DNA from: the human T2T-CHM13v2.0 reference genome, Homo sapiens
Length of the DNA stretch: 64,000 bases
Strand: one strand, 5' to 3'
Assembly (NCBI RefSeq): GCF_009914755.1
Contig: NC_060935.1
Position numbers and translations under genes: made by a program. The notes beneath the pieces were generated by a model. That model did no database searches and was not told the DNA's origin. It saw only the letters and a program-made list of their open reading frames with translations. This document shows, in pieces, positions 1,151 to 64,000 of this stretch (within the stretch, counting starts at the first letter, position 1; the number at the start of each line of letters is the position of its first letter).

Positions 1151-1193
1151 TAATTAAATCAGCCCTAATCCAATCACAACTCTAATCCAACTC
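1151..1193 (+). promoter_or_regulatory. Cluster of DUX4-type double-homeodomain motifs (putative enhancer)
   Basis: TAATTAAATCA (1151-1161), TAATCCAATCA (1166-1176) and degenerate TAATCCAACTC (1183-1193), all in the same orientation; DUX4 consensus is TAAYYYAATCA. Confidence 0.55.
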
Positions 1194-1634: not shown

Positions 1635-1645
1635 TAATCTAATCA
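1635..1645 (+). promoter_or_regulatory. Perfect DUX4 consensus motif
   Basis: TAATCTAATCA, about 460 bp from the 1151-1193 cluster and in the same orientation. Confidence 0.45.
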
Positions 1646-20384: not shown

Positions 20385-21956
<1,572 letters not shown>

Positions 21957-34840: not shown

Positions 34841-34880
34841 AAAGGACCTTTATAAGTCAAATCAGGAAACTAGCCCTTGG

Positions 34881-36380: not shown

Positions 36381-36399
36381 TGCAACTTTTTCTTCCATT

Positions 36400-36910
36400 A
36401 AACTTTTAATTATTTTTGTTTTGGTATAGTATACATGTATAAATTACAATTTTCACCATTTTAAGTGTATAGTTTAGCTGCTTTAAGGACATTCCCATCG
36501 TTGTACAACCATCAACACCTTCTATCTCCAGAACGTTTTCATCATCACAGACTAGTACTCTACCCATTAAACAGTAACACCTCATTATAGCCTGCCCTGG
36601 CTGCTGGTATCCCTTGTTTTATTTCTCTAATAATTTCAGTATTTTAGGTACCTCATGTAAGTGCAATGATACAATATTTGTCCTTTCATGTCTAGCTTAT
36701 TTGACTTAGCATGATGTCCTCCAGGTTCAACTACGTTGCAGCATGTGTCAGATTTCCTTCCTTTTCAAGGCTGAATAATATTCCACTGTAGGTATATACC
36801 ACATTTTGTTGATCAGTTCTTCCACTGATGAACACTTATGTGGTTTCCACCTTTTGGCTCTGTGCATGGTGCTGTTATGAACACTGGTGTAAACATATCT
36901 TCATGTGTCC
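36400..36910 (-). mobile_element. L1 3' end (L1MB-like), antisense
   Basis: cttatttgacttagcatgatgtcctccaggttca, ggctgaataatattccactgt. Confidence 0.8.
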
Positions 36911-38204
36911 CTGGTAAAACCATTTAATCACCTTTTAGAGTAGGTTACACATTCTTCATTGAACATCATTAATACCCCTGTGCGTCTGCCTTGATTGGAG
37001 ATCTGATTAAATACCTGCAGTAAATCAGTTTTTAATGTCATCTGAAATTCAAAAATTGTAATTAAATTTAATTAAAATTTTAGATTAAAACTTGTGTCAC
37101 TTCTCCTGAATTTTAAGAGACTACTGACAGCTGCATACCAAATATATGCACACCAGCATCTATTACTATTTCAGGGAATTCATGGATCTCTCAGTTCTAT
37201 CCTAAGTCCCAGGTTTAGGAGTCTAAAGTTTCTCTCAGTATCCCCTTATCACGGATGTCTCCTTGGCTTTGAAACAGCGTTTTCAGTCTTCACATAATCT
37301 GCAGAGTTTGGGGAGAGTTGTGCTCCATATCTTTTTATTCCTGCTGGCAGTAACTCACTATGGGCACAACATGGCTCTGTGGGAAGCTGGGCATGGTGAC
37401 CAGGTGGCTGTGTGAAGCCAGGAAGCTCTTGCCAAACTCACAGCCAGCACTGTACATGCACTGAAGCTCACGGGATCCCTTTACCTGGCACAGGACGGGC
37501 AGTGCAAAGCTTGTGTGCTTCTGTCAGAGTGAGCGTGGGTGGGTAGTGGGCACTGCTTCTAGTGGGCTTCCTTCTTCATGGCCTTCTGGTCTCAGAGGCT
37601 GCCAAAGTCCTGACTGAATCCACATAGGGTGAGCGCTTGCACAGAGAATCCAGAGGCGGGTGTCCAAGGCCCCTGTGCTGGGCTCGAGCAGTGCTTGGGA
37701 GACGGTTACCCACGGAGCTTTCCGTGCTGGGCTTGTCTTTCTAGGGGGAAAACAGGAGGGGCGGGCATGGGCTGCAGGGTCCAAAGTGGAATTTACCACA
37801 GTTGGAAAAGAAAGTTCTGGTAAAGTATTATTTCTTTTCTCTTTTATGGTATAGGGCTCTCCTTTTTATGGTACAGATTTAGGCCAGAAATTTGAGATCC
37901 AGCCTAGAACCCATGTGAGTTTCATTAAGTATAAATTGCAGTTTCTATAAGACAAGTTTGAGTAGTACTTTTAAAACAGAAGAATTTAAGTAACTTTACT
38001 GTACTGAAGACAGAAAAAAAGGACAAATGTAGGGATATAGAAAACAAACAACATTAACCATAAGGTAGAATTATGTACCCAGTAATAGAGAATATCCCCT
38101 TATTTTCAAGTACCAATGGATAATTCACAACATTTGACAATATATTAGGGTTAAAAGAAAACATGAATAACTTATAATTTCAAAAGAATAAGAAAATATA
38201 TATA

Positions 38205-40661: not shown

Positions 40662-41833
40662 TAATTGTGCCTGGCCTAATTCATTTAGAATTCTTATGAA
40701 AAAGAATTTTGTCACTTCTCAGCTATTTGTTAATTTATTTAATTTTTAATTTACATCAGTACGAACTCATATTTATTTCATGCTTGGATTATAATTCAAT
40801 TTATATATTTTCTTGCTCGGCTTGGAGATTTGGCCGTTGGAAGTTGTTTTCCTTGTGCCCCTCAAAGTAACCCCATTTTTGACTGTGTGTATTTACCAAG
40901 TTTTTATTTTTCACTACTGCTAATGCTTTGGGCTTTGTCTGTATATCACTTGCCTAGGCCTAGCAAGTGCTTTGTTATCAATACTGCTACTTATTTTTTA
41001 TTTAAAAGTATCATATTTTAGTTTTATTAATCATTTCTATTTCAGTATACATTTTCCCTTTTGCTTATTTATCCATGATCATTTTTATATTTCATTCTCT
41101 TTTGCATATTTTTGTTTTGTTTCATTTTTACTCGCTGCTTGAGGGCAACCTGAAGATCAATAAGATTTTAGAAATGTGAATATAAATTTTCAAATAAATA
41201 TGGTTGGATTCAGCTTTTGTATTGTTGACTTTCAATTTCATTTCATTTTGGTCAAGATTGTTTTCTGTATATGCATTCTATGGGATTTTAATTTGATATT
41301 TACTTTGTAGTCCTGTATTGGTAAATTTATCTATTATAAATGTTTCTTGTGTACTGAGAAGCATTTTCCATTTGCTTTTTAATTGTTGCAATTTTGTTCC
41401 TCAAAGTTCTTAAGCTTGTACATATTATTATAATATTATTAATTTTCTACTCTGCTCTATTGGTTTCTGAAAGAATAATGCTAAAAAAATTAAAAACTAC
41501 ATCACAATTGCATATTTTACTGTCTGACTTTACAACAACTCTCAGTCCTGGCTTTCCATGTGTCAGTGCTATGCGTAGGGTCATAAAGTTCATCACTGTA
41601 TTATTCTGGTGAATTTTTCTATTCAATAACTGTAAAATGTGCCTTTTTAATTCTATAACTACATTGGATATTAACATAGCTGCTTTAGTTTTCTTTTGTT
41701 TGGTATTTGTCAGGGTTGCCTTTTTCCATTCCTTGATTTTTAACTACTTAGCTTCGTTTTCAGATTGGTTTAAAATGCAAAATGAAAGGGAGGGGCTTGG
41801 ACGGGTGGGATGCCTAATCTGGACCAAGCCCAG

Positions 41834-41885
41834 TGATTACATTAGCTGGGCCCTGATTGGGTTAGGGTGTTGCCCAGGTATAAAG
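41834..41885 (+). promoter_or_regulatory. Putative KDM4E promoter: paired DUX4-type motifs and TATA box
   Basis: TGATTACATTA (41834-41844), TGATTGGGTTA (41854-41864, rc TAACCCAATCA) and TATAAAG (41879-41885); strongly conserved with 60314-60365. Confidence 0.75.
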
Positions 41886-41907
41886 CCAGGGTCTTTGGAA
41901 CGTGGGG

Positions 41908-41994
41908 CTTTATTTGGAGTTTAGCTACCAACAGGAAACCTTCTCTTTGGGTCCTGAAGTATTTTCATATGGAATTGTGAGTTTTTGACCGAAG
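41908..41994 (+). other. Putative noncoding exon 1 of KDM4E
   Basis: Begins ~25-30 nt after the TATA box (TSS inferred); donor AAG|GTAGGT at 41994/41995, alternative TT|GTGAGT at 41976/41977. Confidence 0.55.
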
Positions 41995-42420
41995 GTAGGT
42001 CGTTTTATTTCTCTGTCGGAGCACTTTTGGATATTTGTCCTACTGAGAACCTTATTATCATCAATTTGTTCTAAGATTTTGTTAAATATTGTAAAACATC
42101 TCCACCAGATTTTTAGCTATGCTGCTTGTTTCTTACCTCAATGTGTTTTTGTTTGTACTTTCATTTATCTTCATGCCGATGGCTTTTTACTTCTCATCAT
42201 ATTTTTTGAAAACTCAGTTTTCATTCTTTGTCATTCCTGTTGGGTGTTCTGTTTCCTTTTGCAATGGTTTCTTCTTATGAATTTATTTTCATTGTTTCTA
42301 TTGATGTTAATGCATCCAGTTTCTTGAATGGAGTGCTCAATTTATTCATTTTCAAACTTGATCATTTTTCATTTTAGTTTGATGCTGCTCTTTTTCTGTT
42401 TTATGATTTGACCTGATGTT

Positions 42421-45400
42421 TGTCTCATGTGACCGTGTGAAGAGACCCCCAAACAGGCTTTGTGTGAGCAACAAGGCTGTTTATTTCACCTGGGTGCAGG
42501 CGGGCTGAGTCCGAAAAGAGAATCAGCAAAGGGTGGTGGGATTATCATTAGTTCTTACAGGTTTTGGGATAGGCGGTGGAGTTAAGAGCAATGTTTTGGG
42601 GGCAGGGGGTGGATCTCACAAAGTACATTCTCAAGGGTGGGGGAGATTATAAAAAACTTTCTTAAGGGTGGGGGAGATTACAAAGTACATTGATCAATTA
42701 GGGTGGGGCAGAAACAAATCACAATGGTGGAATGTCATTAGTTAAGGCTATTTTCACTTTTGTGGATCTTCAGTTGCTTCAGGCCATCTGGATGTATATG
42801 TGCAGGTCACTGGGGATATGATGGCTTAGCTTGGGCTCAGAGGCCTGAAATTCCTGTCTTCTGATAATAAGAAAAATAAAACAAAATAGTGGTAAAGTGT
42901 TGGGACGGTGAAAATTTTTGGGGGTGGCATGGAGAAATAATGGGAGATGTTTCTCAGGGCTGCTTCGAGCAGGATTAGGGGTGGCGTGGGAACCTAGAGT
43001 GGGAGAGATTAAAGTGAAGAAAGATATTGGGGTAAGGGGTGATATTGTGGGGTTGTTAGAAGGAGCATTTGTTGTATAGAATGATTGGTGATGGTCTGGA
43101 TGCAGTTTTTTATGAATTGAGAAACTAAACAGAAGACACAAGGTCCGAATAAGAGAAGGAGAAAAACAGGTATTAAAGGACTAAGAATTGGGAGGACCCA
43201 GGACATCCAATTAGAGAGTGCCCAAGGAGGTTCAGCATAGCCCTGCCAGCAAAGATTTATTTACTTTAAGAGGGAGTTAAGAGTGGCGGTTTGGGGATAG
43301 CACCAGGAGATATCAGCTGTGATGGCTTGGAGAAACAGTGTAAACCAGCAGTGTAAACAAGAGTAGGGCATTTATGAGTAGTTGAGAACAGTGAATAGGA
43401 GTATGACTAGAAAGAAGATAGTAGGGATGACTAGTTTTTGGGGCTCAGTCCAAGTAGTGGGGGTGACTGCATAAAGCCCTGTTGTAAAAAGTAGGGTAAG
43501 GATGAACAGACCTAATAGAATGAAGGGATGTATTAGGCTCATAAGGGTTATTACTGTTCTTCAGAAATACGAGTGAGTTTAAGGGAAGTAGGGGAGAGTA
43601 CTTGTGACTTCCAGGAGGAAGAGGAGAGATTAGGCTGGCTGTCCAACAGACACAGCTTTATCCTGGAATGGTGAACCCAGTGGGGAGGATCCTGCAGGTG
43701 GACGGCAGTTGGGGTACTATAGATGACTAAGTAGGGTCCAGTCCATCAAGGTTGTAGAGTTTGAGGGGTCAGATTCTTAACAAGAACTGATCGTTCAGCT
43801 AGGGTGTCTTCATATGGCTGGGGATCTGGAGTAGGCAAGAGAAGATTAGCAGCCTGGTGAATTTCCTGTCTAGCCTGCTGGAGGACTGGAAGATAGTTGC
43901 CTAGAGGACTGGTGTCTGGGACGAGGTTGGGGCTGAGCAAGAAAGTGCATCCATATAAAAGTTCAAATGGACTGTACCCTGTAGCATCTTGAGGACAGGC
44001 TCTAATTCTGAGAAGGGCAAGAGGTAAAAGTATTGTCCAGTCCTTTTAAAGTTGGTGGCTGAGCTTGGTGAGGTGTGTTTTTAAAAGACCATTAGTCCGT
44101 TCTACCTTTCCTGAAGACTGAGGACCGTAAGGGATATAAAGGTTTCACTGAATACCAAGAGCCTGAAAAACTGCTTGGCTGATTTAACTAATAAAGGCTG
44201 GTCTGTTATCAGACTGTATAGAGGTGGGAAGGCTAAACTGAGGAATTATGTCTTATAGAAGGGAAGAAATGACTGTGGTGGCCTTCTCAGACCCTGTAGG
44301 AAAGGCCTCTACCTATCCAGTGAAAGTGTCTACCTAGACTAAGAGGTATTTTAGTTATCTGACTCGGGGCACATTGAGTAAAGCTAATTTGCCAGTCCTA
44401 GGTGGGGGCAAATCCTCGAGCTTGATGTGCAGGGAAGGGAGGGGGCCTGAACACTCCCTGAGGAGTAGTAGAATAGCAGATGGAACACTGAGAAGTTATT
44501 TCCTTGAGGATAGATTTCCACGATGGAAAGGAAATGAGAGGTTCTAAGAGATGGGCTAGCGGCTTGTGACCTACATGGAAGAGGTTATGAAATGACAACA
44601 GAATAGAATGGGCCTGTGAGGCTGGAAGGAGATATTTTCCTTGGTCTAAGAACCATTTGCTTTGTGTAGGAAGAGATTGATAGGTGGAAGTTTTAGTGGG
44701 CGAGTAGGTGGGAGTGGCCAGATAAGAAGGAGAAAAACTGCCGTGAGGGATAGATGTTGGAATGCTAGGCCTTGAGAAGAGTTTTTATTAAGGAGGCATT
44801 AATGATGGAGGACCCTTGCATAGTGAGGAAACCTCTTTCAGCCCGTATAATAGCATGGTGGTGCAGGATATGGAAGGCATATTTAGAGTCAGTATAAATA
44901 TTGACGTGTAATTCCTTTGCAAGAGTGAGGGCTCGAGTTAAGGCAATGAGTTCAGCTTGCTGAGAGGTAGTGGAGGGGGGCAGAGCAGTAGCCTCAATGC
45001 TAGATGTGGAAGATACTATAAGCATAGCCTGCCTTTGCTGGTGTGTGGCGATTAGGCCTGGTGGAACTGCCATCAATAAACCAAGTGTGATTAGGGTGAG
45101 GAACAGGAAAGAAGGAAATATGGGGAAATAGAGTGAATGCCAGGTGGATCAGAGAGATACAGTCATGGGGGTCAGGTGTGGTATCCAGAATAACATGGGA
45201 GGCTGGATTGAAGACCCGGCCAGGAACAATGGTAATTGTGGGAGACTCAACAAAGAGTGAGTACAGCCGAAGGAGCTGGGGAGCAGAAAGTATATGTGTC
45301 AGGTGTGAGGAAGAAAATAGATTTTGGAAGTTATGAGAACTGTAGGGAGTGAATTGAGCATAGTCTGTGATTTTGAGGGCCTCTAAAAGTATTAGGGCAG

Positions 45401-48099
45401 CAGCAGCCACCACACGCAGACATGAGGGCTAGGCTAAAACAGTAAGGTCAAGTTGTTTGGACAGAAGGCTACAGGGTGCGGTCCTGGCTCTTGTGTAAGA
45501 ACTCCGACTGCACAGCCCTGCACTTTGGCTGTGTGTAATGAAAAGGGTTGGGATGAGTTAGGGAGAGCTAGTGTGGGGGCAGCTTCTAGGGCTGTTTTTA
45601 AGGAACAGAAAGGAGTGGCGAAAGGATTTAGGATCTGTGGGATCAACTAGGTTTGCTTTTGTGAGTTTATATCATGGTTTAGTCAGGATGGTAAAGCTAG
45701 GTATCCAAAGGTGGAAGTACCTAACCATGCCGAGGAAGGAAAGGAGTTGTTGTTTTGTAGAAGGGATTGGGGTTTGGGAGATTAGCCAGACACAATGAGG
45801 AGGGAGAGCACGTGTGTCTTCCTGAGAATTATGCCGAGATAGATAACAGATGAGGAAGAAATTCGGGCTTGATTGAAGTAATGGGGGCTGTCCGTGAAGC
45901 CTTGTGGCAGTACAGCCCAGGTAATTTGCTGAGCCTGATGGGTGTCAGGGTCAGTCCAAGTGAAAGCGAAGAGAGGCTGGGATGAAGGGTGAAAAGGAAT
46001 AGTAAAGAAAGCATGTTTGAGATCCAGAACAGAATAATGGGTTGTGGAGAGAGTTATTTAGGACAGGAGAGTATATGGGTTTGGCACCACGGGGTAGATA
46101 GGCAAAACAATTTGGTTGATAAGGCACAGATCCTGAACTAACCTGTAAGACTTGTCCGGTTTTTGGACAGGTAAAATGGGGGAATTGTAAGGAGAGTTTA
46201 TAGGCTTTAAAAGGCCATGCTGTAACAGTCGAGTGATAACAGGCTTTAATCCTTTTAAAGCCTGCTGCGGGATGGGATATTGGCATTGAGCGGGGTAAGG
46301 GTGATTAGGTTTTAATGAGATGGTAAGGGGTGCATGATCGGTTGACAAGGAGGCAGTAGAGGTATCCCATACTTGTGGGTTAAGGTGGGGAGATACAAGG
46401 GGAGGATGCGAAGGAGGCTTTGAACTGAGGGAAAAGGCAGCAATGAGGTGTGGCTGTAGCCCAGGAATAGTGAAGGAAGCAGATAATTTAGTTAAAATGT
46501 CTCGACCTAATAAGGGAGCTGGGCAGGTGGGGATAACTAAAAATGAGTGCATTAAAGAATGTTGTCCAAGTTGGCACCAGAGTTGGGGAGTTTTAAGAGG
46601 TTTAGAAGCTTGGCTGTCAATACCCACAACAGTTATGGAGGCAAGGGAAACAGGATTGTCAGATGAGTCTGTAGAAAAGAAGGATTCAAAGGACTCAGAG
46701 CTTGGGGTGGAGACTGAAGGAACAGACAGGAGAGAAAGAAAAAAGATTTGGGACAAGTCTCTTTGGGAGCAGAGACTAGGGAGGGACCAATGTATAAAAG
46801 AATGCCTGGATGTCGGGCACCTCAGACCATTTTTGCCCATTTTTCGACAAAAATTGTCTAGGTCTCGTAGGATGGAGAAATCAAAAGTGCCATTTTCTGG
46901 CCATTTAGAACCATTGTCGAGTTTGTACTGGGGCCAGGTGGTGTTGCAGAAGAAAATAAGATGCTTAGATTTTGGGTCAGGTGAGAGTTGAAGAGGTTTT
47001 AAGTTCTTGAGAACACAGGCTAAGGGAGAAGAAGGAGGAATGGAGGGTGGAAGGTTGCCCATAGTGAAGGAGGCAAGTTTAAAAAATAAGGGTAGAGACA
47101 CAGAGAAGGGGGGTGGGGAGCAGCCCTGAGCTGCAACGTAGGGGAGCAGCCAAAGCAGCTGTCCCCACAGTTGATTTGCCCATCAAGGGAATGTGGGTGA
47201 ATGATAATGTGGGTGAATGCGGAGATCAGACACCAATGGAACATGGGTGAATAATCAGAGACACATCCCCACAATGATTAAACACCAAGGGAAGGCTGCC
47301 TTCCCGAGTCCGTGACCAGCGCCGGAGTTTTGGGTCCAGGGATAAAATGTGTCTCCTTTGTCTCTACCAGAAAATAAAAGGAATTGAAATTAAGAGAAGA
47401 AAGAGATTGAAGGGTGGCGCCAAGATTGAAAGAAGAAAGAGGTTGAGGGATAGTGAGAGAGGTTGGAGAAGACAGTAAAAAGAGCTGCTTGCCTGATTTA
47501 AAATCAGTGAGATGTTCCTTGGGCTGGTTGGTCTGAGGACTGGAGGTCGTATGTGGATCTTTTCACAGAGTGAGGGTGAGGACAGGGGACTGGTCTCCCG
47601 AAGGAGTCCCGCTGACCCAGGTCTTCGGCACGAAATGTCTCACGTGTCCGTGTCAAGAGACCCCCAAAGAGGCTTTGTGTGAGCAACAAGGCTGTTTATT
47701 TCTCCTGGGTGCAGGCGGGCTAAGTCCAAAAAGAGAGTCAGCAAAGGGTGGTGGGATTATCATTAGTTCTTACAGGTTTTGGGATAGGTGGTGGAGTTAA
47801 GAGCAATGTTTTGGGGGCAGGGGGTGGATCTCACAAAGTACATTCTCGAGGGTGGGGGGAATTACAAAGAAACTTCTTAAGGGTGGGGGAGATTATAAAG
47901 AAACTTCGTAAGGGTGGGGGAGATTACAAAGTACATTGATCAGTTAGGGTGGGGCAGAAACAAATCACAATGGTGGAATGTCATCAGTTAAGGCTATTTT
48001 CACTTCTTTTGTGGATCTTCAGTTGCTTCAGGCCATCTGGATGTGTATGTGCAGGTCACTGGGGATATGATGGCTTAGCTTGGGCTCAGAGGCCTGACA
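42421..48099 (-). mobile_element. HERV-H provirus, deleted ~5.7 kb form, with two LTR7-family LTRs
   Basis: LTRs 42421-42850 and 47636-48099; 5-bp TSD ATGTT (42416-42420, 48100-48104); PPT rc agaagacaggaa; gag MGNLPPSIPP, RT NSPYNSPILPVQKPDKSYRLVQDL, RNaseH QQAELIALTRAL..VNIYTDSKY, integrase and env TM remnants. Confidence 0.96.
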
Positions 48100-48204
48100 A
48101 TGTTTACATATCCTGATGTTAGCATATGTTTTAGCTTAGCTTAATGCTAGCTGAATATTTCTTTTGTCTGGTTATATACTTATTTAAAAAATATGAATAT
48201 TCTG

Positions 48205-48227
48205 TATCTTTTGTTGTTGTTGTTTAG
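48205..48227 (+). promoter_or_regulatory. Putative splice acceptor of the KDM4E coding exon
   Basis: tcttttgttgttgttgtttAG, 367 nt before the ATG; the following UTR is homologous to KDM4D 20035-20384 (acccccaggt, agagtgga, ctca(c/t)agataa). Confidence 0.6.
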
Positions 48228-48594
48228 GTGTATTGTTTCGACTTCCTAGAAGAGACCCCCAGGTACAGTGGGACACTAGCTGCTACTAGTGCACCCAAGC
48301 CTGAGAATCAGGAGAAGCCTCACAGTGACACCCCCAACTGAGGAAACTCACAGAGCTGGGACATACTCTACTTCTTCAGAAAAAAGTATACTGACTAGAG
48401 TGGAGTCCCCCTGGGGAGTCAGAAAGCCTGTGAAAGATCTCACTTGTTCAAAAGTCCAAGTGTGAATTACTGTCTCACAGATAAACCAAAGTATTTTGAA
48501 AAACAAAGGGGAGAAAAGAAATTACTCCCCAGAACTCTCAGGCATCTAGAGGACACCCAAGAACGTGGGAGTCAGCTGCTTCTTGTGTGCAGCC

Positions 48595-50115
48595 ATGAAG
48601 TCTGTGCACTCCAGTCCCCAGAACACGAGTCATACCATCATGACGTTTTACCCAACCATGGAAGAATTTGCAGATTTCAACACATATGTTGCTTACATGG
48701 AGTCCCAAGGCGCACATCAAGCTGGCCTTGCCAAGGTAATTCCACCCAAGGAATGGAAAGCCAGACAGATGTATGATGATATCGAAGACATCTTAATAGC
48801 CACTCCCCTCCAGCAGGTGACCTCTGGGCAGGGAGGTGTGTTTACTCAATACCATAAAAAGAAGAAAGCCATGAGGGTGGGGCAGTATCGCCGCTTGGCA
48901 AACAGTAAAAAATATCAGACTCCGCCACACCAGAATTTTGCAGATTTGGAGCAACGATACTGGAAGAGCCACCCCGGTAATCCACCAATTTATGGTGCTG
49001 ATATCAGCGGCTCCTTATTTGAAGAAAGCACTAAACAATGGAACCTAGGACACCTGGGAACAATTCTGGACCTGTTGGAGCAGGAATGTGGGGTTGTCAT
49101 CGAGGGTGTCAACACACCCTACCTGTACTTTGGCATGTGGAAGACCACGTTTGCCTGGCACACAGAGGACATGGACCTTTACAGCATCAACTACCTGCAC
49201 TTTGGGGAGCCCAAAACTTGGTACGTGGTGCCCCCAGAACATGGTCAGCACCTGGAACGCCTGGCCAGGGAGCTCTTCCCAGACATTTCTCGGGGCTGTG
49301 AGGCCTTCCTGCGGCACAAAGTGGCCCTCATCTCGCCTACAGTTCTCAAGGAAAATGGGATTCCCTTCAATTGCATGACTCAGGAGGCTGGGGAGTTCAT
49401 GGTGACCTTTCCCTATGGCTACCATGCTGGCTTCAATCACGGCTTCAACTGCGCAGAAGCCATTAATTTTGCCACTCCACGATGGATTGATTATGGCAAA
49501 ATGGCCTCTCAGTGTAGCTGTGGGGAGTCGACAGTGACCTTTTCCATGGACCCCTTTGTGCGCATTGTGCAACCCGAGAGTTATGAGCTCTGGAAACACA
49601 GGCAAGACTTGGCCATTGTGGAACACACAGAGCCCAGGGTTGCAGAAAGCCAAGAGCTGAGCAACTGGAGAGATGATATAGTACTTAGAAGAGCTGCTCT
49701 GGGCCTGAGGCTTCTCCCAAACCTCACAGCCCAGTGTCCCACACAGCCTGTGTCCTCAGGGCACTGTTACAACCCAAAAGGCTGTGGCACTGATGCTGTG
49801 CCTGGATCCGCATTCCAAAGCTCTGCATATCATACCCAGACCCAGTCACTTACCCTGGGGATGTCAGCCAGGGTTCTTCTCCCTTCCACTGGAAGCTGGG
49901 GTTCTGGTCGTGGTCGTGGTCGTGGTCAAGGTCAAGGTCGAGGTTGCAGTCGTGGTCGTGGTCATGGTTGTTGTACTCGAGAACTGGGGACTGAGGAGCC
50001 AACTGTTCAGCCTGCATCCAAGAGGCGCCTTTTAATGGGTACAAGGAGTAGAGCTCAAGGCCACAGGCCTCAGCTCCCGCTTGCCAATGATTTGATGACA
50101 AATCTGTCCCTTTGA
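48595..50115 (+). CDS. KDM4E: Lysine demethylase 4E (JMJD2E), 506 aa
   Basis: ATG in GCCATGA context ([10 protein letters not shown]); intact JmjN/JmjC with HTED, GFNHG and CSC; RG-rich C-terminus; length matches human KDM4E. Confidence 0.96.
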
Positions 50116-51494
50116 GTGGTGGCCTTCAGCATCTTGCCAAGGCTTCTGGCTGCTGCTGTGTCCCTGATCTTCAACTCCTGGGGCCCCCACTGGATCGTGA
50201 TGAAACCATGCACCCTGGCCTGTGCCTGCTATCCCTCAACAGCACTACTAGTAATCTCCCTGATGTTGTCTGCATGACTCCTCCCAATGTCATTGTGCCT
50301 TTGATTAAGTTTTCCAGGGACACTGGTGGGGACTGGAACTGATTAAGTTCACCAGGGACACTTGCCTGGTGAACATGGGCAAGGCTGTAGCAATGGACCA
50401 CTTTTACGGCTCTAGGGTTCTGACTCCAACTAAGTTTTCCAGAATCTCCTGGGCTCCTGACTCATCTGCTGGGTCTAAAGACACTGAGTTTAGGGATATT
50501 TTCCTCCAATACATGATCAATCCTCTGGATCCACGGCTATGGAATATGGTGACAAATGTCAGTGTCTCTCTTATTCCAACCCCAGGATCAGAGAAGATTC
50601 TTTACCTGCAGTAACTGACACATTTCCAAGGCCCCCAGATGCTGTCTCCAACTGTGACAACCAGGGCTCCCAGAGGCCACTGAAGTCCCCTCCCCAAAGG
50701 TTGCCATAGGATGTTGTAGTACCTCTCAGGGATTCTCTGTCTACTCCACATATTTGCCTGTGGCCTTCACCATGGCCAGATGCCATGGACAGCACTTGTT
50801 TCTGATGTCCCCCTTAGGATACCTCCCTTATAGTGCTATGGGTCCAGATTCCATGGTAATTTGGGCCCACACTGGATGATGCTGAGAATCTTACTGAGCC
50901 TCTCATTTTTACTTCTCATCTGGTCCTCTATGTCTCTGACTCTGGATTCCACTGGACATTGCTACAACCCCAGTGAGGTTCAGGGCTTCCCACAATCCTT
51001 CAATTGCAACATGCCCTTTATCCTAGGCCACCGTCCACTGCTCATGTACAAACTAGACCTTTTGACCAACTGAGTTACTTAGCCAGTTATGGCTTCAGAG
51101 GTATTTTGTAACTATACTGATGTTAACTAAATTTGCTGTCTCTAATGTATATCTCCAAAGAAAATAAAAGTCTTAGTGCATGTTTTTTAAATTAGAATAA
51201 TATAAAATAGATATATCAAAAAGAAAGTGATTTAGAAAAGTGATTGAGATAAAAGAATGGGGAAACTATACCAAGCAAAGAACAAACATAAAAGTAGATT
51301 TACAGATCTTAATATCAGGCAAACCTGAATTGAGACCAAAGGTACATAGCATGGATCTTCACAATGCAAAATACTAAATTTCACAATGACATTACAGCAG
51401 TCATGAATATTCAAGTTCGACATAGTATAAATTATAGTACATAAAAGACAAGTTTAAAGAAACAGATTAAAAATAGGAACATTTAAGTCACCAG

Positions 51495-57399: not shown

Positions 57400-58418
57400 A
57401 AATCAGATTTAGTCTGCCTTATATCAAATGGATCTAATAGATATTGACAGGACACTTCATCCACCAGTTGTAAAATACAGATTCTTTTCCTCAGCACATG
57501 GATCATTCTCAAGAATAGACCACATGTTAGGTAACAAAATACAACTTAAAAAGTTCAAAAATTCAAATAATACCAAGCATCTTCTCTGGACACAGTGGAA
57601 TAAAACTAGAAATAAAAATAAGAGGAATTTTGGAAATTACACAAACACATACAAATTAACCAATATGCACCTGAATCTCCAGTAGGTCAATGATGAAATT
57701 AAGAAGGAAATTGAGGAATTTCCTGAAACAAATCATAATGGAAACACAATATATTAAAACCTATAGGATACAGTAAAAGCAGTACTAACATGGAAGTTTA
57801 TAGCTATAAGTCCCTACATCAAAAAAGAGGAGAAACTTAAAATAAACCACCTAATGATGACTCTTAAAGAAGTAGAAAGGTAAGAACAAAAATAATCCAA
57901 AATTAGTAGAAGAAAAGAAATAACAAAGATCAGAGCAGAAATTAATGAAATCAAAATGAGGAAAACAATGCAAAAGATCACTGAAACAAAGTTGTTTTGA
58001 AAAGTTAAACCAAATTGAGAAACCTTTAGCTGACTAAGAAAAAGAGACAGAAGATCTAAATCAATAAAATCAGAAATGAAAAGGCAGGCATTGCAATAGA
58101 TGCTGCAGAAATTCAAAGTATCATTAGTGGCTACTATGAGCAACTATATGGCAATAAGTTGAAAAACCTAGAAGAAATGCACAAGTTGCTAGACACATAC
58201 AACCTACCAAGATAGAACGAGGAAGAAATTCAAAACCTGAATAGACCAATAACAAATAATGAGATCCAAGCTGTAATAAAAAGTCTCCCAGTAAATTAAA
58301 GCTGAGGATCCGATGGCTTCACTGCTAAATTCCACCAAACATTTAAAGAAGAACTCATACCAGTCCTACTCAAGCTATTCTGAAAAGCAGAGGAAGAGGA
58401 ATTACTTACAAACTCATT
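57400..58418 (+). mobile_element. L1 ORF2 fragment (endonuclease C-terminus onward)
   Basis: Translation MDLIDIDRTLHP..FFSSAHGSFSRIDHMLG; gacacatacaacctaccaaga. Confidence 0.9.
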
Positions 58419-59573
58419 TTATTTTTTTTCTGAATATTTTTGACCTATAGTTGGTTGAATTCACTGATGCTGAGCCCAGAGGTTACAGAAGGCTGCCTGT
58501 ATTCTATGACGAGGGATCCATTCACAGATAAGAGGACACATGAGCTCCAGTATACATGTCCAAGCGTGTTCTGAGCAACACTGTAAGAGGCCAAAGTGGA
58601 AACAATCCAAATGCCATCAACAGCAGAAACATTTATACTATTGGACACCTTACAGCAGGCAACAGGACCAAGTACAGATACACAGAACAACATAGATGAG
58701 GGAAATAAAACAAACAAAAAAACCATTAAACTGCATAAAGCAAAATTCTACTTATATAAGGTTATATAACATTTTCAAAATGAGCAACATTTTAGTAAAT
58801 TTATTTAGAATTCTTCTGCAGAGGGGTTTTGTCTCTTCTCTCCAATTTGTTAAATTTACTCATTTATTCATAACAGCATGAACTCGCAGGTATTTATTTT
58901 ATTCTTTGGATTATAATTCAATAATATTTTAGTTATTCTGTTGCTTAACTTGTTTAAGATTTGGCCATTGGGAGCTGTTTTCATTGGTTCTTGTGCTCTT
59001 CTAATATAACCCCATAAATGTTCTAACATAACCTCATCAATACTTTTGTTTGTTTTGTGTTTACCACATTCTTATTTTCCAACATTCCAAGATGGCTATA
59101 GGCTCTTTCTATATTTCCTGCACAGGTCTAGAAACTTTATTTCTTCATAAGTATTGCCACACCTTTTTTTTTTAACATTATCAGATTGCAGTTTTATTAA
59201 TCATCTTTAGTCTAGATTGCCTTTTGTTTATAATTCTATCATTGTTTTAATATTTTATGTTATTTGTTTTTACTTACTAATTGCTGGATTTCAACACAAA
59301 GATTTATAGGTTTTTAGAAAATATGGATATTAATTTTCAAATAAATATAGTCAGATTAAGTTTTTAAATTTTTGACCTTTAATTTTATTTCAACAAGGTC
59401 AAGATTATGCTCAATTTATTAACTTATGGAATTGTAACTGATATTTATTTGTAGCTGCACTGGGAAATTTTTGTAAATGTGTTCTACATATTGAAAAGCA
59501 TTTTCCATTTGGTTTTTGGTAGTTGCAGGTTACAATGATCACAGTTGTTAAGTTTGTTTGGCAAATTCTATAG

Positions 59574-59887
<314 letters not shown>

Positions 59888-60313
59888 AAATTATATAGGA
59901 TTCCTAACTTTGTTCTCTGCACTATTGGTTTCGATTAAAATGCTGTTACATTAAAAAAAAACCAACATCTCCTATGATGATGGCAGACTTTTCAGTTTTA
60001 CCATCTAAGTCTGAGTCTTGGCTCTCTATGGTCAGTGCCATGTGGTTAGGTGCATAAAGTTCATTACTGTAATATTGTAATATTTTCCTATGAAATTTCT
60101 TTTCATTAACTATAAAATGTGCTTCTTTGATCCTATCAATACACTGGATATTAATATTGCTACCCTAGGTTTCTTTTGTTTAATATTTGTTTGGATTGCC
60201 TGTTCCCATAAATTGACTTTTAATCACTTAGCGTTGTTTTAAGATTGATTTAAAATGTAGAATAAAAGGGAAGGTTATGGGAGGGTGGGACGTCTAATGT
60301 AAACCCAGCCCAG

Positions 60314-60365
60314 TGATTACATTGGCTGGGCGCTGATTAGGTTAGGATGTTGCCCAGGTATAAAG
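60314..60365 (+). promoter_or_regulatory. Paralogous DUX4-motif/TATA promoter upstream of the SRSF retrocopy
   Basis: TGATTACATTG (60314-60324), TGATTAGGTTA (60334-60344, rc TAACCTAATCA) and TATAAAG (60359-60365); spacing identical to 41834-41885. Confidence 0.75.
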
Positions 60366-60626
60366 CCAGGATCTTCGGGACCTGGCTTCATTTGGAGTTC
60401 AGCTACCAAGAGGAAACCTTCCTCTGGGTCCTGGAGTATTCGGCCTGAAATTGGGAATTTGGGAATTGCTGCTCTAGAGCGCTCCCTGCGGAGCTCGGCC
60501 GCCCGCCTCTCCCCCAGGTCTCTCCTGGCGTCCCCACGCGGGGCGCAACCGCAAGAGAGGAACGCAGGTCGCCCCACCAGCGCCCAGTGCCGCGCCAGTT
60601 TCCAGGCCCGGGCTGCTCTCGGAGCC

Positions 60627-61493
60627 ATGAGCTGCGGCCGCCCCCCTCCCGACGTGGATGGCATGATCACCCTCAAGGTGGACAACCTGACCTACCGCAC
60701 CTCTCCCGACAGCTTGAGGCGCGTGTTCGAGAAGTACGGGCGCGTGGGCGACGTGTACATCCCGCTGGAGCCCCACACCAAGGCGCCCCGGGGCTTCGCC
60801 TTCGTCCGCTTTCACGACCGGAGCGACGCGCAAGACGCCGAGGCCGCCATGGACGGGGCGGTGCTGGACGAACGCGAGCTGCGTGTGCGGATGGCGCGCT
60901 ATGGCCGCCGGGACCTGCCTCGCAGCAGCCAGGAAGAGCCACGCGGCAGGTCCTGGGGCGGCCGCTACGGACGGCGGAGCGGCAGCCCCAGGGGGCGACA
61001 CCGCAGCCAATCCCGGGGTCCCAGCTACTCTAGGTCCCGCAGCAGATCTCACTATGGGGGGTCTCGCTATAGCCTGTCTATCTACAGGAGATCTCGCTAC
61101 AGCCGATCTCCCTACAGACGATCTCATTACAGGGGATCTCGCTACGGCCGATCTCCCTACAGTCGATCTTACAGCCGGCATCACTACAGCCGATCTCCCT
61201 ACAGGGAATCTCGCTACAGGAGGTCTCCCTACATCCGGTCTTCCCGCAGCAGGTCTCCCTACCGCCGCTCTCACTCGAAGTCTGGGTCTCACTCTGCATC
61301 TCCATCAACCTCCAAATCCAGCTCTCCGTGAAGATCCAAGTCCTCCTCCATCTCCAGATCTTGCTCATGGTCCAGGTCTAGATCTACGTCCGGGAGTCCT
61401 CCCCCGACATCCAAGAGGGAATCCAAGTCCAGGTCGCGATCCAAGAGTCCTCCCAAGTCTCCTGAAGGGGAAAAAGGACAAGTGCCCTCCTAG
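60627..61493 (+). pseudogene. SRSF8BP: SRSF2-derived processed retrocopy, SRSF8 paralog; 234-aa ORF (60627-61331: RRM plus most of the RS domain) with premature TGA, ancestral stop at 61491-61493
   Basis: [24 protein letters not shown]1 RGFAFVRF, intronless; differs from SRSF8 as I recall it (PLEPH, DRSDA, VLDERE), so the symbol is inferred; frame continues after TGA to [18 protein letters not shown]. Confidence 0.8.
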
Positions 61494-62834
61494 GAAAATG
61501 ATCATCAGCTAACGCGTGATGGAGGACTTGGGGAAAAGGACTCCATACTCAGTCCATGGAAGCAGAGTCACTGGAAGAAGCGACTGCGTAATGAAACGGT
61601 TGGGTGATATTTGTCTACCTGTTTTACCAGTTTGAAGCGTTGCATCAGATGGCAAGATTCATTTTATGTGCCATTTTTTTGTTTTCAAATTTTCTTGTAA
61701 TTTAGTGAGGTGAATGACTTTAGATTGGATTTGGGTATTAGAGGGGAAAATTTATATTTGTCTTTTTTGCTTGTTTTTTATTTTTGAGATGTAGTCGAGC
61801 TCTGCTGCCCACGCTGGAGTGCAGTGGCGCCATCTGCATCTTCCACCTCCTGGGTTCAAGCAATTCTCAGGCCTCAGCCTCTGGAGTAGCTGGAATTACA
61901 GACGCCAGCCACCACGGAGGGCTAATTGTTGGATTTTTGGATTTTTAGTAGAGACGGGGTTTCGCCATGTTGGCCAGCCTGCCCTCAAACTCCTGGGCTC
62001 AAGTGATCTGCTCACCTTGGCCTCCTAAAGTTCTGCGATTACAGGTGTGAGCCTCTTCGCCCAGCGTGTATTTGATTCTATAGTGCTGATATTTTTGGTT
62101 TGAAATGAACAGGTTGGTAACCTAATTTGTGGCCTCCTGTCTCTTAAGAAATGTGTGCAGCCATTACACACAGCCGAACGCTGTCACGGCATTGCCTCAA
62201 AACTGCCTTCATTCCTTAAAGTTAAAAACTTACAAAAGGCGGTATAAATGTATATGTGTAATGTTATTACCTTTATATCTAACTGGTAATATGACCCAAA
62301 TTTGTATAAAGATTTTTCAGGTGAAAAGACCGGGTTTTGAGCAAACACAATTCTAATCTCTTCTGTGTTTTTGTGTACCAGGCCCGGCTGCATAGCAGTT
62401 GAGTGATGCTGGTTAGCTGTTAAGGTGGCCTGTTGCAGTGCAGAGTGCTGAGCTGTTTCCTGTTTTCTTCTGATTGCTCCTGAAAAAAGAAGCCCTGTCC
62501 TGAAGAACAAATGGCTGTTCAGTTTATTAAAATGCCTGTCAACTGCCCTTCCAGTCACCCAGGCCTGGAAGAGAAATAATAGAGCATGCAGTGAGCACAT
62601 CTAGCTGATATGATAATCACACCTCTTCCCCCTCCCTATTCTGTTAAATGGCAAATCTGATCATGTCAACATACATGAACTTAAAATATGGGGAATGTTA
62701 TGGAAGAAATGGTTTGTAACTGTAGGTACTTACAACATGGTGTATGTTTTTGATTATGAATATTTCTTACTATAACCGTGTTTCTATCATTGAATTAAAA
62801 TGTTTTCTTGGTGTTACCTTTTCTCAAAATAAAA
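61494..62834 (+). other. SRSF2-type 3' UTR of the retrocopy with poly(A) signal and tail remnant; antisense Alu at ~61762-62065
   Basis: SRSF2-UTR-like segments (gtgtgcagccattacacacagcc, gctggttagctgttaaggtggc); ATTAAA at 62794-62799; aaaataaaa at 62826-62834. Confidence 0.75.
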
Positions 62835-63454
62835 CTAGAAATATTTTGTAGAAAGTTGGTGGTTTTATTTTGCTGTTGGATACTTTCTGCTATTTGTACT
62901 TTTGGGAAAATTATGTTACCAAGTTTCTCATAGGATTCAATTATAATTAAAAAAAACTCTACAAGGTTTAGCTATGTGCTTTATTATTTTATCACAATGT
63001 AGTTTCTTTGTACACTCTTTCTTTCCTCTTCCTCCCTGTGATTTTTAACTTCTAAAGGTCTTTTCAAAGAATCAGATTTTGATTTTCGTTATTACCTATA
63101 CTGGGTGTAATATTTTCTTTTGTAATTGTTTCTGCTTATACCTTTATTTTCTTTCCTTTATTTTAATTCATCCCGCTTACTGAGTTGAGTGCTAAATTCA
63201 ATCATTTTTGAACTTGCTGATTTTTTTCTTTCAGTTCAATTAGATACTCCTCTTTATATATGTTATGATTTGACCTTGAATCCTGATATTAACACACCAT
63301 ACCAATCTGCCATAATCGATCCATCCTGGGTGGTGGAACTGATGGCCTCTGTACAGTTAAAGCTGTGGTTGAAGCCTGCGTGGCGTCACTAAGTTACTAA
63401 GGTAGCTTAAATCTCAGCATTTTGTTTGTCACACATTTGTCTTCAAATATTCTG

Positions 63455-64000
63455 AAATATACTGGACTCGACCACACCAGACGTTTGAAGATTTGGAAAG
63501 AAAATACCGGAAGAACCTCAGCCTCCTATTTGATGAAAACAGTAAATAATGTAATCCTGGACACGTAGGAACAATTCAGGACTTTCTGGAGCAGGAATAT
63601 GAGGTTTTCATCGAAGAGAGTGTCAACACACCCTACCTGTACTTTGGCAATGTGGATGACCACCTTTCCATAGCTCATGGAGGACATGGACCTTTACATC
63701 AACTACCATCACTTCAGAGAGCCCCTATATTGGTACGCAGTGCCCCAAAACCATAGTTGGCACCTGGAATGCTCAGTCAGGGAGCTTTTCCAGGTAGTTC
63801 TCAGGGTTATGAGGCCTTCCTGTGGCACTAGATGGCCCTCATCGTGCCCACCGTGCTCATGCAGAATGGGATTCCCTTCAATAGCATGAGTCAGGAGGCT
63901 GGAGAGTTCACAGTGACATTTCCCTATGACTACAACACAGGCTTCAACTGCAAAGAGGCCATCAATTTAACCACCCAGGATGGGTAGATTATGGCAATAT
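63455..64000 (+). pseudogene. KDM4D-like pseudogene (JmjC region), runs off the window end
   Basis: ccacaccagacgtttgaagatttggaaagaaaatac, gtcaacacaccctacctgtactttggc, MEDMDLY; multiple stops and frameshifts; JmjN missing. Confidence 0.9.

What the first reader, a model, noticed from the sequence alone, without database searches (positions are those of the whole stretch)
60240..63300. SRSF2 retrocopy landed in exon 1 of a duplicated KDM4 cassette and captured its DUX4/TATA promoter
Seen: 58800-60460 aligns with the KDM4E upstream block (40680-41975) through both DUX motifs and the TATA box. Homology stops at ~60460 where the SRSF2 mRNA-like sequence begins. It resumes after the poly(A) remnant at ~62840 (atattttgtagaaagttggtggttttatttt vs gtttttgaccgaaggtaggtcgttttattt at 41981) and continues to ttatgatttgacct (42401 vs 63263). 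The donor AAG|GTAGGT has decayed to AAG|TTGGT, a degenerate TSD is plausible (aaattgggaat / aaactagaaat), and the KDM4 copy downstream (63455+) is a pseudogene. Inference: promoter capture turned an H3K9-demethylase unit into a DUX4-inducible SR splicing-factor unit, so one cassette couples chromatin and splicing regulators at zygotic genome activation. Established: KDM4E is a DUX4 target and an 8-cell gene. I cannot tell whether this origin has already been published.
Basis: partly seen in the sequence, partly recalled or inferred. Interest (0 to 1): 0.85.

Follow-up and report, generated by a model that had tools for sequence, protein, structure and literature searches.

The report
SRSF2 retrocopy inside a KDM4 promoter cassette
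A processed copy of the splicing-factor gene SRSF2 sits just downstream of a promoter otherwise found only in front of the embryonic histone demethylase genes KDM4E and KDM4F, which gives a simple origin for why its sister copy SRSF8 responds to the embryonic activator DUX4.

Summary
The flanks of SRSF8BP (58798-60440 and 62844-63303) are collinear with the upstream blocks of KDM4E and KDM4F. The cassette then continues into a broken KDM4 coding copy.

The insert (60464-62831) matches SRSF2 exons 1-3 on chr17 with both introns missing. It lies about 100 bp downstream of a TATAAA box and a DUX4-consensus site. That site is present in 5 of 5 genomic copies of the core.

The insertion happened once, before a roughly 24-30 kb tandem duplication made KDM4E/KDM4F and SRSF8BP/SRSF8. 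The window copy is the decayed one, with a stop after 234 codons and one DUX motif lost.

Promoter capture is inferred, from conservation of the core and from papers reporting SRSF8 as DUX4-bound and DUX4-induced.

Three points count against the exact claim:
- The RefSeq SRSF8 start and a chr7 "retrocopy of the retrocopy" both show transcripts starting upstream of the TATA box.
- The SRSF8 TATA box has decayed.
- The insert brought its own CpG island.

The retrogene origin and the DUX4 response are already published. I did not find the shared KDM4 promoter origin in print.

The parts
58798..59565 (+). Distal part of the KDM4-type host block. It is paralogous to 40678-41419 (KDM4E upstream), 33711-34509 (cassette B), and the KDM4F and SRSF8 upstream blocks outside the window.
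   Evidence: BLAST. K2P is 0.32-0.35 to the KDM4E/KDM4F copies and 0.215 to SRSF8.
59566..59894 (-). Alu insertion specific to the SRSF8BP lineage. It is absent from the SRSF8, KDM4E and KDM4F blocks.
   Evidence: Alu-type multi-copy hits. The alignment to SRSF8 breaks here, 59577/59887 against 89560/89544. The hub table lists this stretch as masked.
60106..60451 (+). Conserved promoter region of the SRSF8 lineage. The stretch 60280-60451 is also conserved in the KDM4E and KDM4F copies.
   Evidence: In 50-bp windows, SRSF8BP against SRSF8 is 94-98% identical except 82-90% across 60206-60304, against 60-78% in the flanks. Cross-lineage identity is 82-91% over 60280-60426 against about 50-70% in most flanking windows (up to 82% at 60007-60254). 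KDM4E against KDM4F is only 60-76% over 60106-60254.
60314..60324 (-). Degenerate second DUX-type motif (TGATTACATTG). The other 4 of 5 copies have ...ATTA.
   Evidence: The chr7 copy, derived from this locus, still has the intact form, so the change is recent.
60334..60344 (-). Exact match to the DUX4 consensus (TAACCTAATCA on the minus strand).
   Evidence: One search found 4 matches in the window against 0.9 expected. In the 114-kb extended region, 4 of 6 exact matches lie in the four chr11 promoter cores. The site is present in 5 of 5 genomic copies. The consensus itself is recalled, not taken from a tool.
60359..60364 (+). TATAAA box, 15 bp downstream of the DUX4 site and 100 bp upstream of the insert.
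   Evidence: It is present in 4 of 5 copies; SRSF8 reads TACAAG.
60448..60459 (+). 5' copy of the candidate target-site duplication (AAATTGGGAATT).
   Evidence: It is not significant in this copy (8/12). The SRSF8 pair matches 10/12, reached by 34 of 2000 shuffles. The empty sites in KDM4E and KDM4F read GGAATTGTGAGTT.
60464..62831 (+). Processed SRSF2 retrocopy (SRSF8BP): 5'UTR, ORF and 3'UTR, ending at the parental poly(A) site.
   Evidence: Searches show exon 1, 2 and 3 matches with both introns missing. The start lines up with the 5' end of SRSF2 homology. RefSeq annotates only 60466-61043.
60627..61331 (+). Truncated SR-protein ORF of 234 codons followed by TGA (61329-61331). The original stop, TAG, is at 61491-61493.
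   Evidence: Pfam RRM_1 scores 1.5e-17. The best PDB matches are SRp46 (1.2e-52) and SRSF2 (1.3e-45). SRSF8 and the chr7 copy have Arg at this codon.
60500..61300 (.). CpG island carried in by the SRSF2 mRNA (GC 0.58-0.71, CpG o/e 0.75-1.27).
   Evidence: It is also kept in SRSF8. The KDM4E and KDM4F promoter blocks are CpG-poor (o/e 0-0.58).
61754..62065 (+). Alu inserted into the retrocopy's 3'UTR. It is absent from SRSF8 and SRSF2 and present in the chr7 copy.
62832..62843 (+). 3' copy of the candidate target-site duplication (AAACTAGAAATA). Only about 3-4 A of a poly(A) tail remain before it.
62844..63303 (+). Host block downstream of the insert, homologous to the stretch between promoter and coding exon in KDM4E (41991-42417) and KDM4F.
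   Evidence: 70-73% identity.
63300..63382 (-). Inverted fragment of KDM4 coding sequence (KDM4E residues 277-304).
63451..64000 (+). KDM4 pseudogene of the cassette. It continues to about 64181, and its 3' flank runs to about 65123, beyond the window.
   Evidence: It covers residues 104-363 in three frames with at least 4 stops. The first 103 residues are missing.
40677..42417 (+). Empty-site paralogue: the KDM4E upstream block, with DUX motifs at 41834-41844 and 41854-41864 and TATAAA at 41879-41884. A 5.7-kb repeat-rich insertion (42417-48108) separates it from the KDM4E coding exon.
   Evidence: the KDM4F cassette is collinear with 40677-42417 and 48108-51491.

Best explanation
Shown:
- SRSF8BP is an L1-type processed copy of a full-length SRSF2 mRNA.
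- It sits about 100 bp downstream of the TATA box of a KDM4E/KDM4F-type cassette. That cassette runs: upstream block, DUX-motif/TATA core, short leader, intron, KDM4 coding exon.
- The insertion happened once, after this cassette lineage had split from the lineage leading to KDM4E and KDM4F.
- It happened before a roughly 24-30 kb tandem duplication produced KDM4E/KDM4F and SRSF8BP/SRSF8.

Inferred:
- Transcripts started in the host block now run through the leader into the SRSF2 5'UTR and ORF. There is no upstream ATG in the leader, by my reading.
- They end at the retrocopy's own poly(A) signals.
- The donor-like GTGAGT at the target site was lost in the 5' copy. The dead KDM4 frame downstream is therefore no longer served.
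- The result is a composite promoter. It joins the CpG-poor DUX4/TATA core inherited from KDM4, a stretch about 170 bp further upstream that is conserved only in the SRSF8 lineage, and the CpG island brought in with the SRSF2 mRNA.
- This composite explains why SRSF8 is both broadly expressed and an early DUX4-responsive gene.

The window copy is the decaying twin. It keeps the exact DUX4 site, the TATA box and the CpG island. It has lost the second motif, and a premature TGA stop, where SRSF8 and the chr7 copy encode Arg, truncates its ORF. Both changes came after it had spawned a retrocopy on chr7.
For: - Collinearity on both sides of the insert and on through the KDM4 pseudogene and 3' flank.
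- Both SRSF2 introns are missing, and the ends match the SRSF2 mRNA ends.
- KDM4E and KDM4F carry one copy of the target at the empty site. The SRSF8 TSD pair matches 10/12, reached by 34 of 2000 shuffles.
- The core exists only 5 times in the genome, so it is not a dispersed repeat.
- Distances give the grouping (KDM4E,KDM4F),(SRSF8BP,SRSF8). In the distal block, K2P is 0.165 and 0.215 within pairs and 0.32-0.35 between pairs.
- The two units are collinear over about 25 kb at 79-83% identity.
- The retrocopy's 3'UTR has K2P 0.147-0.179 to SRSF2 and 0.136 between the two copies. The insertion is therefore older than the unit duplication.
- The core stays at 82-91% identity across lineages and 94-98% between SRSF8BP and SRSF8, although the KDM4 frame behind it is dead.
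- The DUX4 consensus is present in 5 of 5 copies.
- The RefSeq SRSF8 start (89921, from the hub table) lies 187 bp inside the host block, upstream of the retrocopy start at 90108.
- Papers, passages seen only: SRSF8 was bound by DUX4 in ChIP-seq (peaks assigned within 10 kb of a TSS) and rose 5.9-fold (PMC5409219). It rose 4.0- and 6.2-fold in the two lists of DUX4- and DUX4c-transfected myoblasts; the passages did not show which list was which (PMC5323140). It is listed among genes changed after 3 h of DUX4 induction (bioRxiv 10.1101/2021.05.04.442407). KDM4E is a DUX4 target active at the 4- to 8-cell stage.
Against: - No positional transcript evidence supports a start at TATA+30 (about 60390). 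The RefSeq SRSF8 start equals window 60277, upstream of both DUX motifs.
- The RNA that gave the chr7 copy began at or before about 59956.
- The functional gene, SRSF8, has lost the TATA box (TACAAG).
- The insert's own CpG island could be the main promoter.
- The high SRSF8BP-SRSF8 identity over the promoter and RRM could partly be gene conversion rather than selection. Synonymous distance in the RRM is 0.071, against 0.136-0.215 in neutral parts.
- RefSeq gives KDM4E and KDM4F no exon in the block, so "KDM4 promoter" is itself an inference. It rests on collinearity, the TATA box and motifs, and an acceptor-like site upstream of the coding exon.
- The published ChIP assignment has 10-kb resolution. 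Reads and probes for SRSF8 may cross-map to SRSF8BP and the chr7 copy (95% identical in the RRM).
- The poly(A) tail is almost gone, and the TSD is not significant in the window copy.
Confidence: 0.7

Rival explanations
1. The retrocopy did land in the KDM4 cassette, but the DUX4/TATA core is only a passenger. SRSF8-type transcription would be driven by the CpG island inherited with the SRSF2 5'UTR and coding region, plus a lineage-specific upstream element. The core would look conserved because SRSF8 and SRSF8BP exchanged sequence by gene conversion. The reported DUX4 response would come from another site within 10 kb, or be indirect.
For: - The CpG island is kept in both copies (o/e 0.75-1.27).
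- The RefSeq SRSF8 start and the chr7 fossil transcript both begin upstream of the TATA box (hub table).
- The TATA box is lost in SRSF8.
- The stretch 60106-60254 is conserved only between SRSF8BP and SRSF8.
- Synonymous distance in the RRM is low, 0.071.
- ChIP peaks were assigned at 10-kb resolution.
Against: - The core is also conserved across the two lineages (82-91% against about 50-70% in most flanking windows). Lineage-specific differences are kept, which SRSF8/SRSF8BP conversion cannot produce.
- The exact DUX4 site is kept in 5 of 5 copies.
- In the 114 kb examined, 4 of 6 exact consensus sites lie in these cores. None within one mismatch lies from -1000 to +500 of the annotated KDM4E start.
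- SRSF8 responds within 3 h.
Confidence: 0.2
2. The shared block is a transposable-element promoter, for example a solo LTR with DUX4 sites. It would have landed independently next to KDM4E, KDM4F and the SRSF2 retrocopies. On this reading there was no KDM4 cassette and no capture from KDM4.
For: From my own knowledge, not from a call: DUX4 sites in LTRs are known to create promoters. The block has a TATA box and motifs in a compact core.
Against: - Only 5 copies of the core were found in the whole assembly, with 5 first-look candidates, all scored.
- The homology is not confined to an element-sized unit. It runs collinearly for over 1.6 kb upstream, through the intron part, the KDM4 coding remnant and the 3' flank.
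- The hub table does not list the block as masked repeat.
Confidence: 0.03
3. The direction is reversed, or the events were independent. Either the KDM4E and KDM4F blocks once held the retrocopy and lost it precisely, or SRSF8 and SRSF8BP are two separate insertions.
For: The retrocopy-to-SRSF2 distance (0.147-0.179) is about as large as half the distance between the cassette lineages (0.16-0.17). The order of split and insertion therefore rests on parsimony.
Against: - Both retrocopies share the same junctions, the same TSD and the same flanks.
- KDM4E and KDM4F each hold a single undisturbed copy of the target with a conserved GTGAGT.
- Two precise excisions, or two identical insertions, are far less likely than one insertion.
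Confidence: 0.02

Closest known systems
SRSF8 (SRp46, SFRS2B), the expressed SRSF2 (PR264/SC35) retrogene at 11q21 (Soret et al. 1998, Mol Cell Biol 18:4924). I saw the title only, in a reference list; the paper is not held.
   Same: SRSF8BP comes from the same insertion event, with the same junctions and the same host block. Identity is 83% over 59887-61759 and 95% in the RRM. The best PDB match of the window ORF is the SRp46 RRM.
   Different: The window copy has a premature TGA after 234 codons, two extra Alu insertions and one DUX motif lost. It keeps the TATAAA that SRSF8 has lost.
KDM4E and KDM4F, DUX4-responsive cleavage-stage H3K9 demethylase genes
   Same: They share the upstream block, DUX-motif pair, TATA box, leader and first part of the intron. 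The SRSF8BP cassette also carries a KDM4 coding remnant and 3' flank in the same order.
   Different: In KDM4E and KDM4F the site is empty and the KDM4 frame is open. Here the frame is dead and an SR-protein gene sits behind the promoter. RefSeq does not annotate the block as KDM4E or KDM4F promoter or exon.
Retrogenes that gain expression by landing in or next to the 5' end of an existing gene, or by inheriting a CpG-rich 5' region. This class is reviewed in PMC4772013 and PMC5470649 (search listing only); the description is from my own knowledge.
   Same: A promoter-less mRNA copy becomes expressed from host sequence immediately upstream. A CpG island inherited from the parent is also retained.
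   Different: The host was itself a member of a tandem gene family with a stage-specific (DUX4-type) promoter. The host gene died and the unit was then re-duplicated. One copy re-transposed to chr7 with the captured promoter on board.

Membership tests
L1-mediated processed retrocopy | Parental introns absent | tested here: met
   SRSF2 introns of about 325 bp and about 1000 bp are missing in SRSF8BP and SRSF8.
L1-mediated processed retrocopy | Ends coincide with the parental mRNA ends | tested here: met
   Homology starts about 30 bp downstream of the SRSF2 TATA-like box and ends about 20 nt after the SRSF2 ATTAAA.
L1-mediated processed retrocopy | Poly(A) tail | tested here: inconclusive
   Only 3-4 A remain between the end of homology (62831) and the 3' TSD.
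L1-mediated processed retrocopy | Target-site duplication with a single copy at the empty site | tested here: inconclusive
   The window copy matches 8/12, reached by 1252 of 2000 shuffles. SRSF8 matches 10/12, reached by 34 of 2000. The empty sites in KDM4E and KDM4F hold one copy.
SR protein of the SRSF2/SRSF8 type | N-terminal RRM | tested here: met
   Pfam RRM_1 scores 1.5e-17 over residues 17-86. PDB matches are SRp46 at 1.2e-52 and SRSF2 at 1.3e-45.
SR protein of the SRSF2/SRSF8 type | C-terminal Arg/Ser-rich domain in an intact ORF | tested here: not met
   The RS-rich sequence is present, but a TGA cuts the frame after 234 of 288 codons. It is open in SRSF8 (282 aa) and in the chr7 copy (293 aa).
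KDM4D/E/F-type gene cassette | Collinear upstream block, core, intron part, coding region and 3' flank | tested here: met
   seven collinear segments against the KDM4F cassette.
KDM4D/E/F-type gene cassette | Open KDM4 reading frame | tested here: not met
   Only residues 104-363 are present, in three frames with at least 4 stops. The 5' end is replaced by an inverted fragment.
Direct DUX4 target promoter | Match to the DUX4 binding consensus near the start site | tested here: met
   There is an exact match at 60334-60344, kept in 5 of 5 paralogous cores. The consensus is recalled, not taken from a tool.
Direct DUX4 target promoter | DUX4 occupancy and DUX4-dependent transcription from this promoter | not testable with these tools
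   There is published evidence for the paralogue SRSF8 only: ChIP-seq within 10 kb and 4- to 6-fold induction. Nothing was found for SRSF8BP. Cross-mapping between the copies is possible.

The most novel reading that the evidence does not exclude
The captured promoter has become a mobile, self-contained unit. The chr7 element (G000:C7:47213577-47216483) is a retrocopy of an SRSF8BP transcript. It carried about 505 bp of the KDM4-derived promoter (both DUX motifs and TATAAA intact) together with an open 293-codon SR-protein frame. It may therefore be a third, unrecognised DUX4-inducible SR-protein gene. Part of the "SRSF8" signal reported after DUX4 induction or in cleavage-stage embryos may really come from it and from SRSF8BP, whose TATA boxes are intact, rather than from SRSF8, whose TATA box has decayed.
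Probability: 0.25. Interest if true: 0.6.

Novelty: new member of a known kind. Interest (0 to 1): 0.45.

Why it matters
It gives a concrete, sequence-level origin for a known but unexplained fact: the SR splicing factor SRSF8 is an early DUX4-responsive gene. Its upstream region is a paralogue of the KDM4E/KDM4F promoter, acquired when an SRSF2 mRNA copy landed in a spare KDM4 cassette.

It also predicts where DUX4 should bind. It warns that SRSF8, SRSF8BP and a chr7 copy can be confused in expression data. It offers a clean example of promoter capture followed by tandem duplication and re-transposition.

It does not change what is known about retrogene birth in general.

Tried and rejected
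- Reverse direction or independent insertions: rejected, because the junctions are shared and the empty sites in KDM4E and KDM4F are intact.
- Transposable-element origin of the core: rejected, because there are only 5 genomic copies and the collinearity extends well beyond the core.
- Cassette B (33711-37777): examined as a possible third witness. A deletion removes everything between the equivalents of 60190 and 63956. The 116 bp in between match nothing in the SRSF8BP cassette, so it says nothing about the insertion.
- A proximal DUX4 site at the annotated KDM4E start: none within one mismatch of the strict consensus from -1000 to +500. One preprint reports a motif there using a matrix-based scan. 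Its supplementary figure is not readable here.
- Absolute dating: not attempted, because rates differ about twofold between neighbouring segments.
- Cross-species mapping: impossible, as no other mammalian genome is held.
- Literature on the origin: searches for SRSF8+KDM4E (1 paper, irrelevant), SRSF8+retrogene (1, not on this point), SRSF8+DUX4 (7), SFRS2B+DUX4 (2), SRSF8+8-cell (1, mouse), and the KDM4D/E/F terms (16) found no statement that SRSF8 shares a promoter with KDM4E/KDM4F.
- Soret et al. 1998, which may describe the 5' flank, is not held.
- The table that mentions SRSF8BP and SRSF8CP lies beyond the stored part of that paper.


Full report
**1. The observation**

A BLAST of 58000-64000 against the window and against a 114-kb extension fetched from the same assembly gives collinear matches on both sides of SRSF8BP.

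Against the KDM4E upstream block:
- 58798-59557 matches 40678-41419.
- 59887-60440 matches 41421-41963 (75%, E 3e-102).
- 62851-63276 matches 41991-42414 (70%, E 2e-36).

The break at 59566-59894 is an Alu found only in this copy. Against the KDM4F cassette, just outside the window, the match continues in the same order:
- through the upstream block and core (59905-60440);
- through the part after the insert (62844-63303);
- through a KDM4 coding remnant (63465-64177);
- and through the KDM4 3' flank (64703-65123).

KDM4E equals KDM4F plus a 5.7-kb repeat-rich insertion at 42417-48108.

The coding remnant covers KDM4E residues 104-363 in three frames with at least 4 stops. An inverted piece sits at 63300-63382.

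**2. The insert**

A search of the whole assembly with 60441-62850 and a local BLAST place the parent at chr17:77631100-77634316, the SRSF2 locus. Exon 1, exon 2 and the 3'UTR exon match in order. The two introns (about 325 and about 1000 bp) are absent in both SRSF8BP and SRSF8.

Homology begins about 30 bp after the SRSF2 TATA-like box and ends about 20 nt after its ATTAAA. In the window the retrocopy runs 60464-62831, with a later Alu at 61754-62065.

The ORF starts at 60627. It has an RRM (Pfam 1.5e-17). It is closest to the SRp46 and SRSF2 RRM structures. It stops at a TGA after 234 codons, where SRSF8 and the chr7 copy have Arg.

**3. Junctions**

The empty sites in KDM4E and KDM4F read GGAATTGTGAGTT once. 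SRSF8 has AAATTGGGAACT before the retrocopy and AAATTAGAAACT after it. That is 10 of 12 matches, reached by 34 of 2000 shuffles.

The window copy has 8 of 12, which is not above chance (1252 of 2000). Only 3-4 A of a tail remain.

The duplicated target overlaps a GTGAGT donor-like site that is intact in KDM4E and KDM4F. Both copies of it are mutated in the SRSF8 lineage.

It is AAA|GTAGGT in SRSF8 and AAA|GTTGGT here, so the GT is kept. It is AAG|TTAGGT in KDM4F, where the GT is lost.

An acceptor-like site lies upstream of the KDM4E and KDM4F coding exons, roughly where KDM4D exon 3 begins. RefSeq annotates no upstream exon for KDM4E or KDM4F. "Exon 1" is therefore an inference.

**4. Order of events**

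The core exists five times in the assembly:
- SRSF8BP;
- a chr7 copy (98%);
- SRSF8 (93%);
- KDM4E upstream (84%);
- KDM4F upstream (84%).

K2P distances in the distal block are 0.165 for KDM4E-KDM4F, 0.215 for SRSF8BP-SRSF8, and 0.32-0.35 between the pairs.

The stretch from KDM4E to SRSF8BP is collinear with the stretch from KDM4F to SRSF8 at 79-83% identity. One tandem duplication of about 24-30 kb therefore made both pairs.

The retrocopy's 3'UTR has K2P 0.147-0.179 to SRSF2 and 0.136 between the two copies. The insertion came before that duplication, and close to or soon after the split from the KDM4E/KDM4F lineage.

A third old cassette (33711-37777) has a deletion over the critical part and is uninformative.

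**5. The promoter**

In 50-bp windows, identity behaves as follows:
- SRSF8BP-SRSF8 is 94-98% over 60106-60451 except 82-90% across 60206-60304, and 60-78% in the flanks.
- Cross-lineage identity is 82-91% over 60280-60426 and about 50-70% in most flanking windows (up to 82% at 60007-60254).
- Over 60106-60254, KDM4E and KDM4F are only 60-76% alike.

That last stretch is therefore conserved only in the SRSF8 lineage.

The exact DUX4 consensus is present in 5 of 5 cores, the second looser motif in 4 of 5, and TATAAA in 4 of 5. The second motif is lost here, and the TATA box is lost in SRSF8. The consensus is recalled, not taken from a tool.

In the window the strict pattern has 4 matches against 0.9 expected; 1 of 100 shuffles reached 4. 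In 114 kb, 4 of 6 exact matches are in these cores.

The host promoters are CpG-poor. The retrocopy keeps a CpG island in both copies.

**6. Where transcripts start**

The RefSeq SRSF8 start (89921, hub table) lies 187 bp inside the host block. It corresponds to window 60277, upstream of the motifs and TATA box.

The chr7 element (47213577-47216483) has an exact 13-bp target-site duplication. It ends about 20 nt after the AATAAA at 62829-62834. It covers the window from about 59956 to 62856.

It is therefore a retrocopy of an SRSF8BP RNA that began at least 400 bp upstream of the TATA box. It shows that SRSF8BP was transcribed in the germ line or early embryo. It does not support a start at TATA+30.

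The chr7 copy keeps both motifs, the TATA box and an open 293-codon frame. It still has the ancestral state at the two positions that have decayed in SRSF8BP.

**7. Literature**

I saw passages only, through term searches, unless stated otherwise.
- SRSF8 was bound by DUX4 in ChIP-seq, with peaks assigned within 10 kb of a TSS, and rose 5.9-fold (PMC5409219).
- SRSF8 rose 4.0- and 6.2-fold in two lists from a study of DUX4- and DUX4c-transfected myoblasts. The passages did not show which list was which (PMC5323140).
- SRSF8 is named among previously identified DUX4-affected genes that change after 3 h (bioRxiv 10.1101/2021.05.04.442407).
- Its phosphopeptides rise within 2 h (PMC10655719).
- KDM4E is a DUX4 target that is transiently active at the 4- to 8-cell stage (PMC6341076; bioRxiv 10.1101/2020.05.24.109710).
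- KDM4D orthologues are confined to eutherians (PMC3308871).
- The retrogene nature of SRSF8 is known from Soret et al. 1998 (title seen; paper not held).
- None of the searches found a statement that SRSF8 and KDM4E/KDM4F share a promoter by descent. Supplementary tables and figures of these papers were not examined and may bear on binding positions.

**8. Verdict**

Promoter capture is the best explanation. It is supported by geometry, by conservation after the host gene died, and by the published DUX4 response of SRSF8.

The exact start site and the role of the TATA box are not supported by the positional evidence at hand. The CpG island brought in by the insert is a serious co-explanation.

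The kind of event is well known. The specific link between a DUX4-responsive SR-protein gene and the KDM4E/KDM4F promoter appears not to be in print. The chr7 re-transposed copy with the promoter on board is an additional, untested lead.

Noticed in passing
G000:C7:47213577-47216483 (loci L002, L007, L022, L023): This is a second-generation retrocopy of an SRSF8BP transcript with an exact 13-bp target-site duplication. It carries about 505 bp of the KDM4-derived promoter (both DUX motifs and TATAAA intact), the Alu-bearing 3'UTR and an open 293-codon SR-protein frame. It is 97-98% identical to the window copy. A symbol SRSF8CP occurs in one paper's table, but I could not see where it maps.
   Followed up: partly
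window 1166-1176 and 1635-1645 (+): Two further exact DUX4-consensus matches lie within the KDM4D gene span, upstream of its coding exon. One paper reports the neighbouring gene CWC15 as DUX4-bound and induced 5.4-fold.
   Followed up: no
window 60106-60254: This stretch is conserved between SRSF8BP and SRSF8 (90-96%) but not between KDM4E and KDM4F (60-76%). It lies just upstream of the equivalent of the RefSeq SRSF8 start. It may be a promoter element that arose in the SRSF8 lineage, or a gene-conversion tract.
   Followed up: partly
window 33711-37777: A third, old KDM4 cassette (LOC100420801 region) is about equally distant from the KDM4E/KDM4F and SRSF8 lineages (K2P 0.27-0.35). A deletion removes the core promoter and the first two thirds of the coding region.
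   Followed up: partly
window 42417-48108: A 5.7-kb insertion of repeats separates the KDM4E promoter-type block from the KDM4E coding exon. KDM4F lacks it. The first part looked LTR-like to me by eye, but I ran no repeat library.
   Followed up: no
window 20394-21948 against KDM4F (72459-73983 in extended coordinates): KDM4D shares only the coding region with KDM4E and KDM4F (86% over the first 1.1 kb). There is no detectable flank homology, and KDM4D has no copy of the DUX/TATA block. Its annotated promoter lies beside CWC15, outside the window.
   Followed up: no
window 62003-63000: The predicted lncRNA LOC107984375 uses an Alu-internal donor at 62044/62045 and an acceptor at 62381/62382 inside the retrocopy's 3'UTR. 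It runs past the old poly(A) site into the host block.
   Followed up: no
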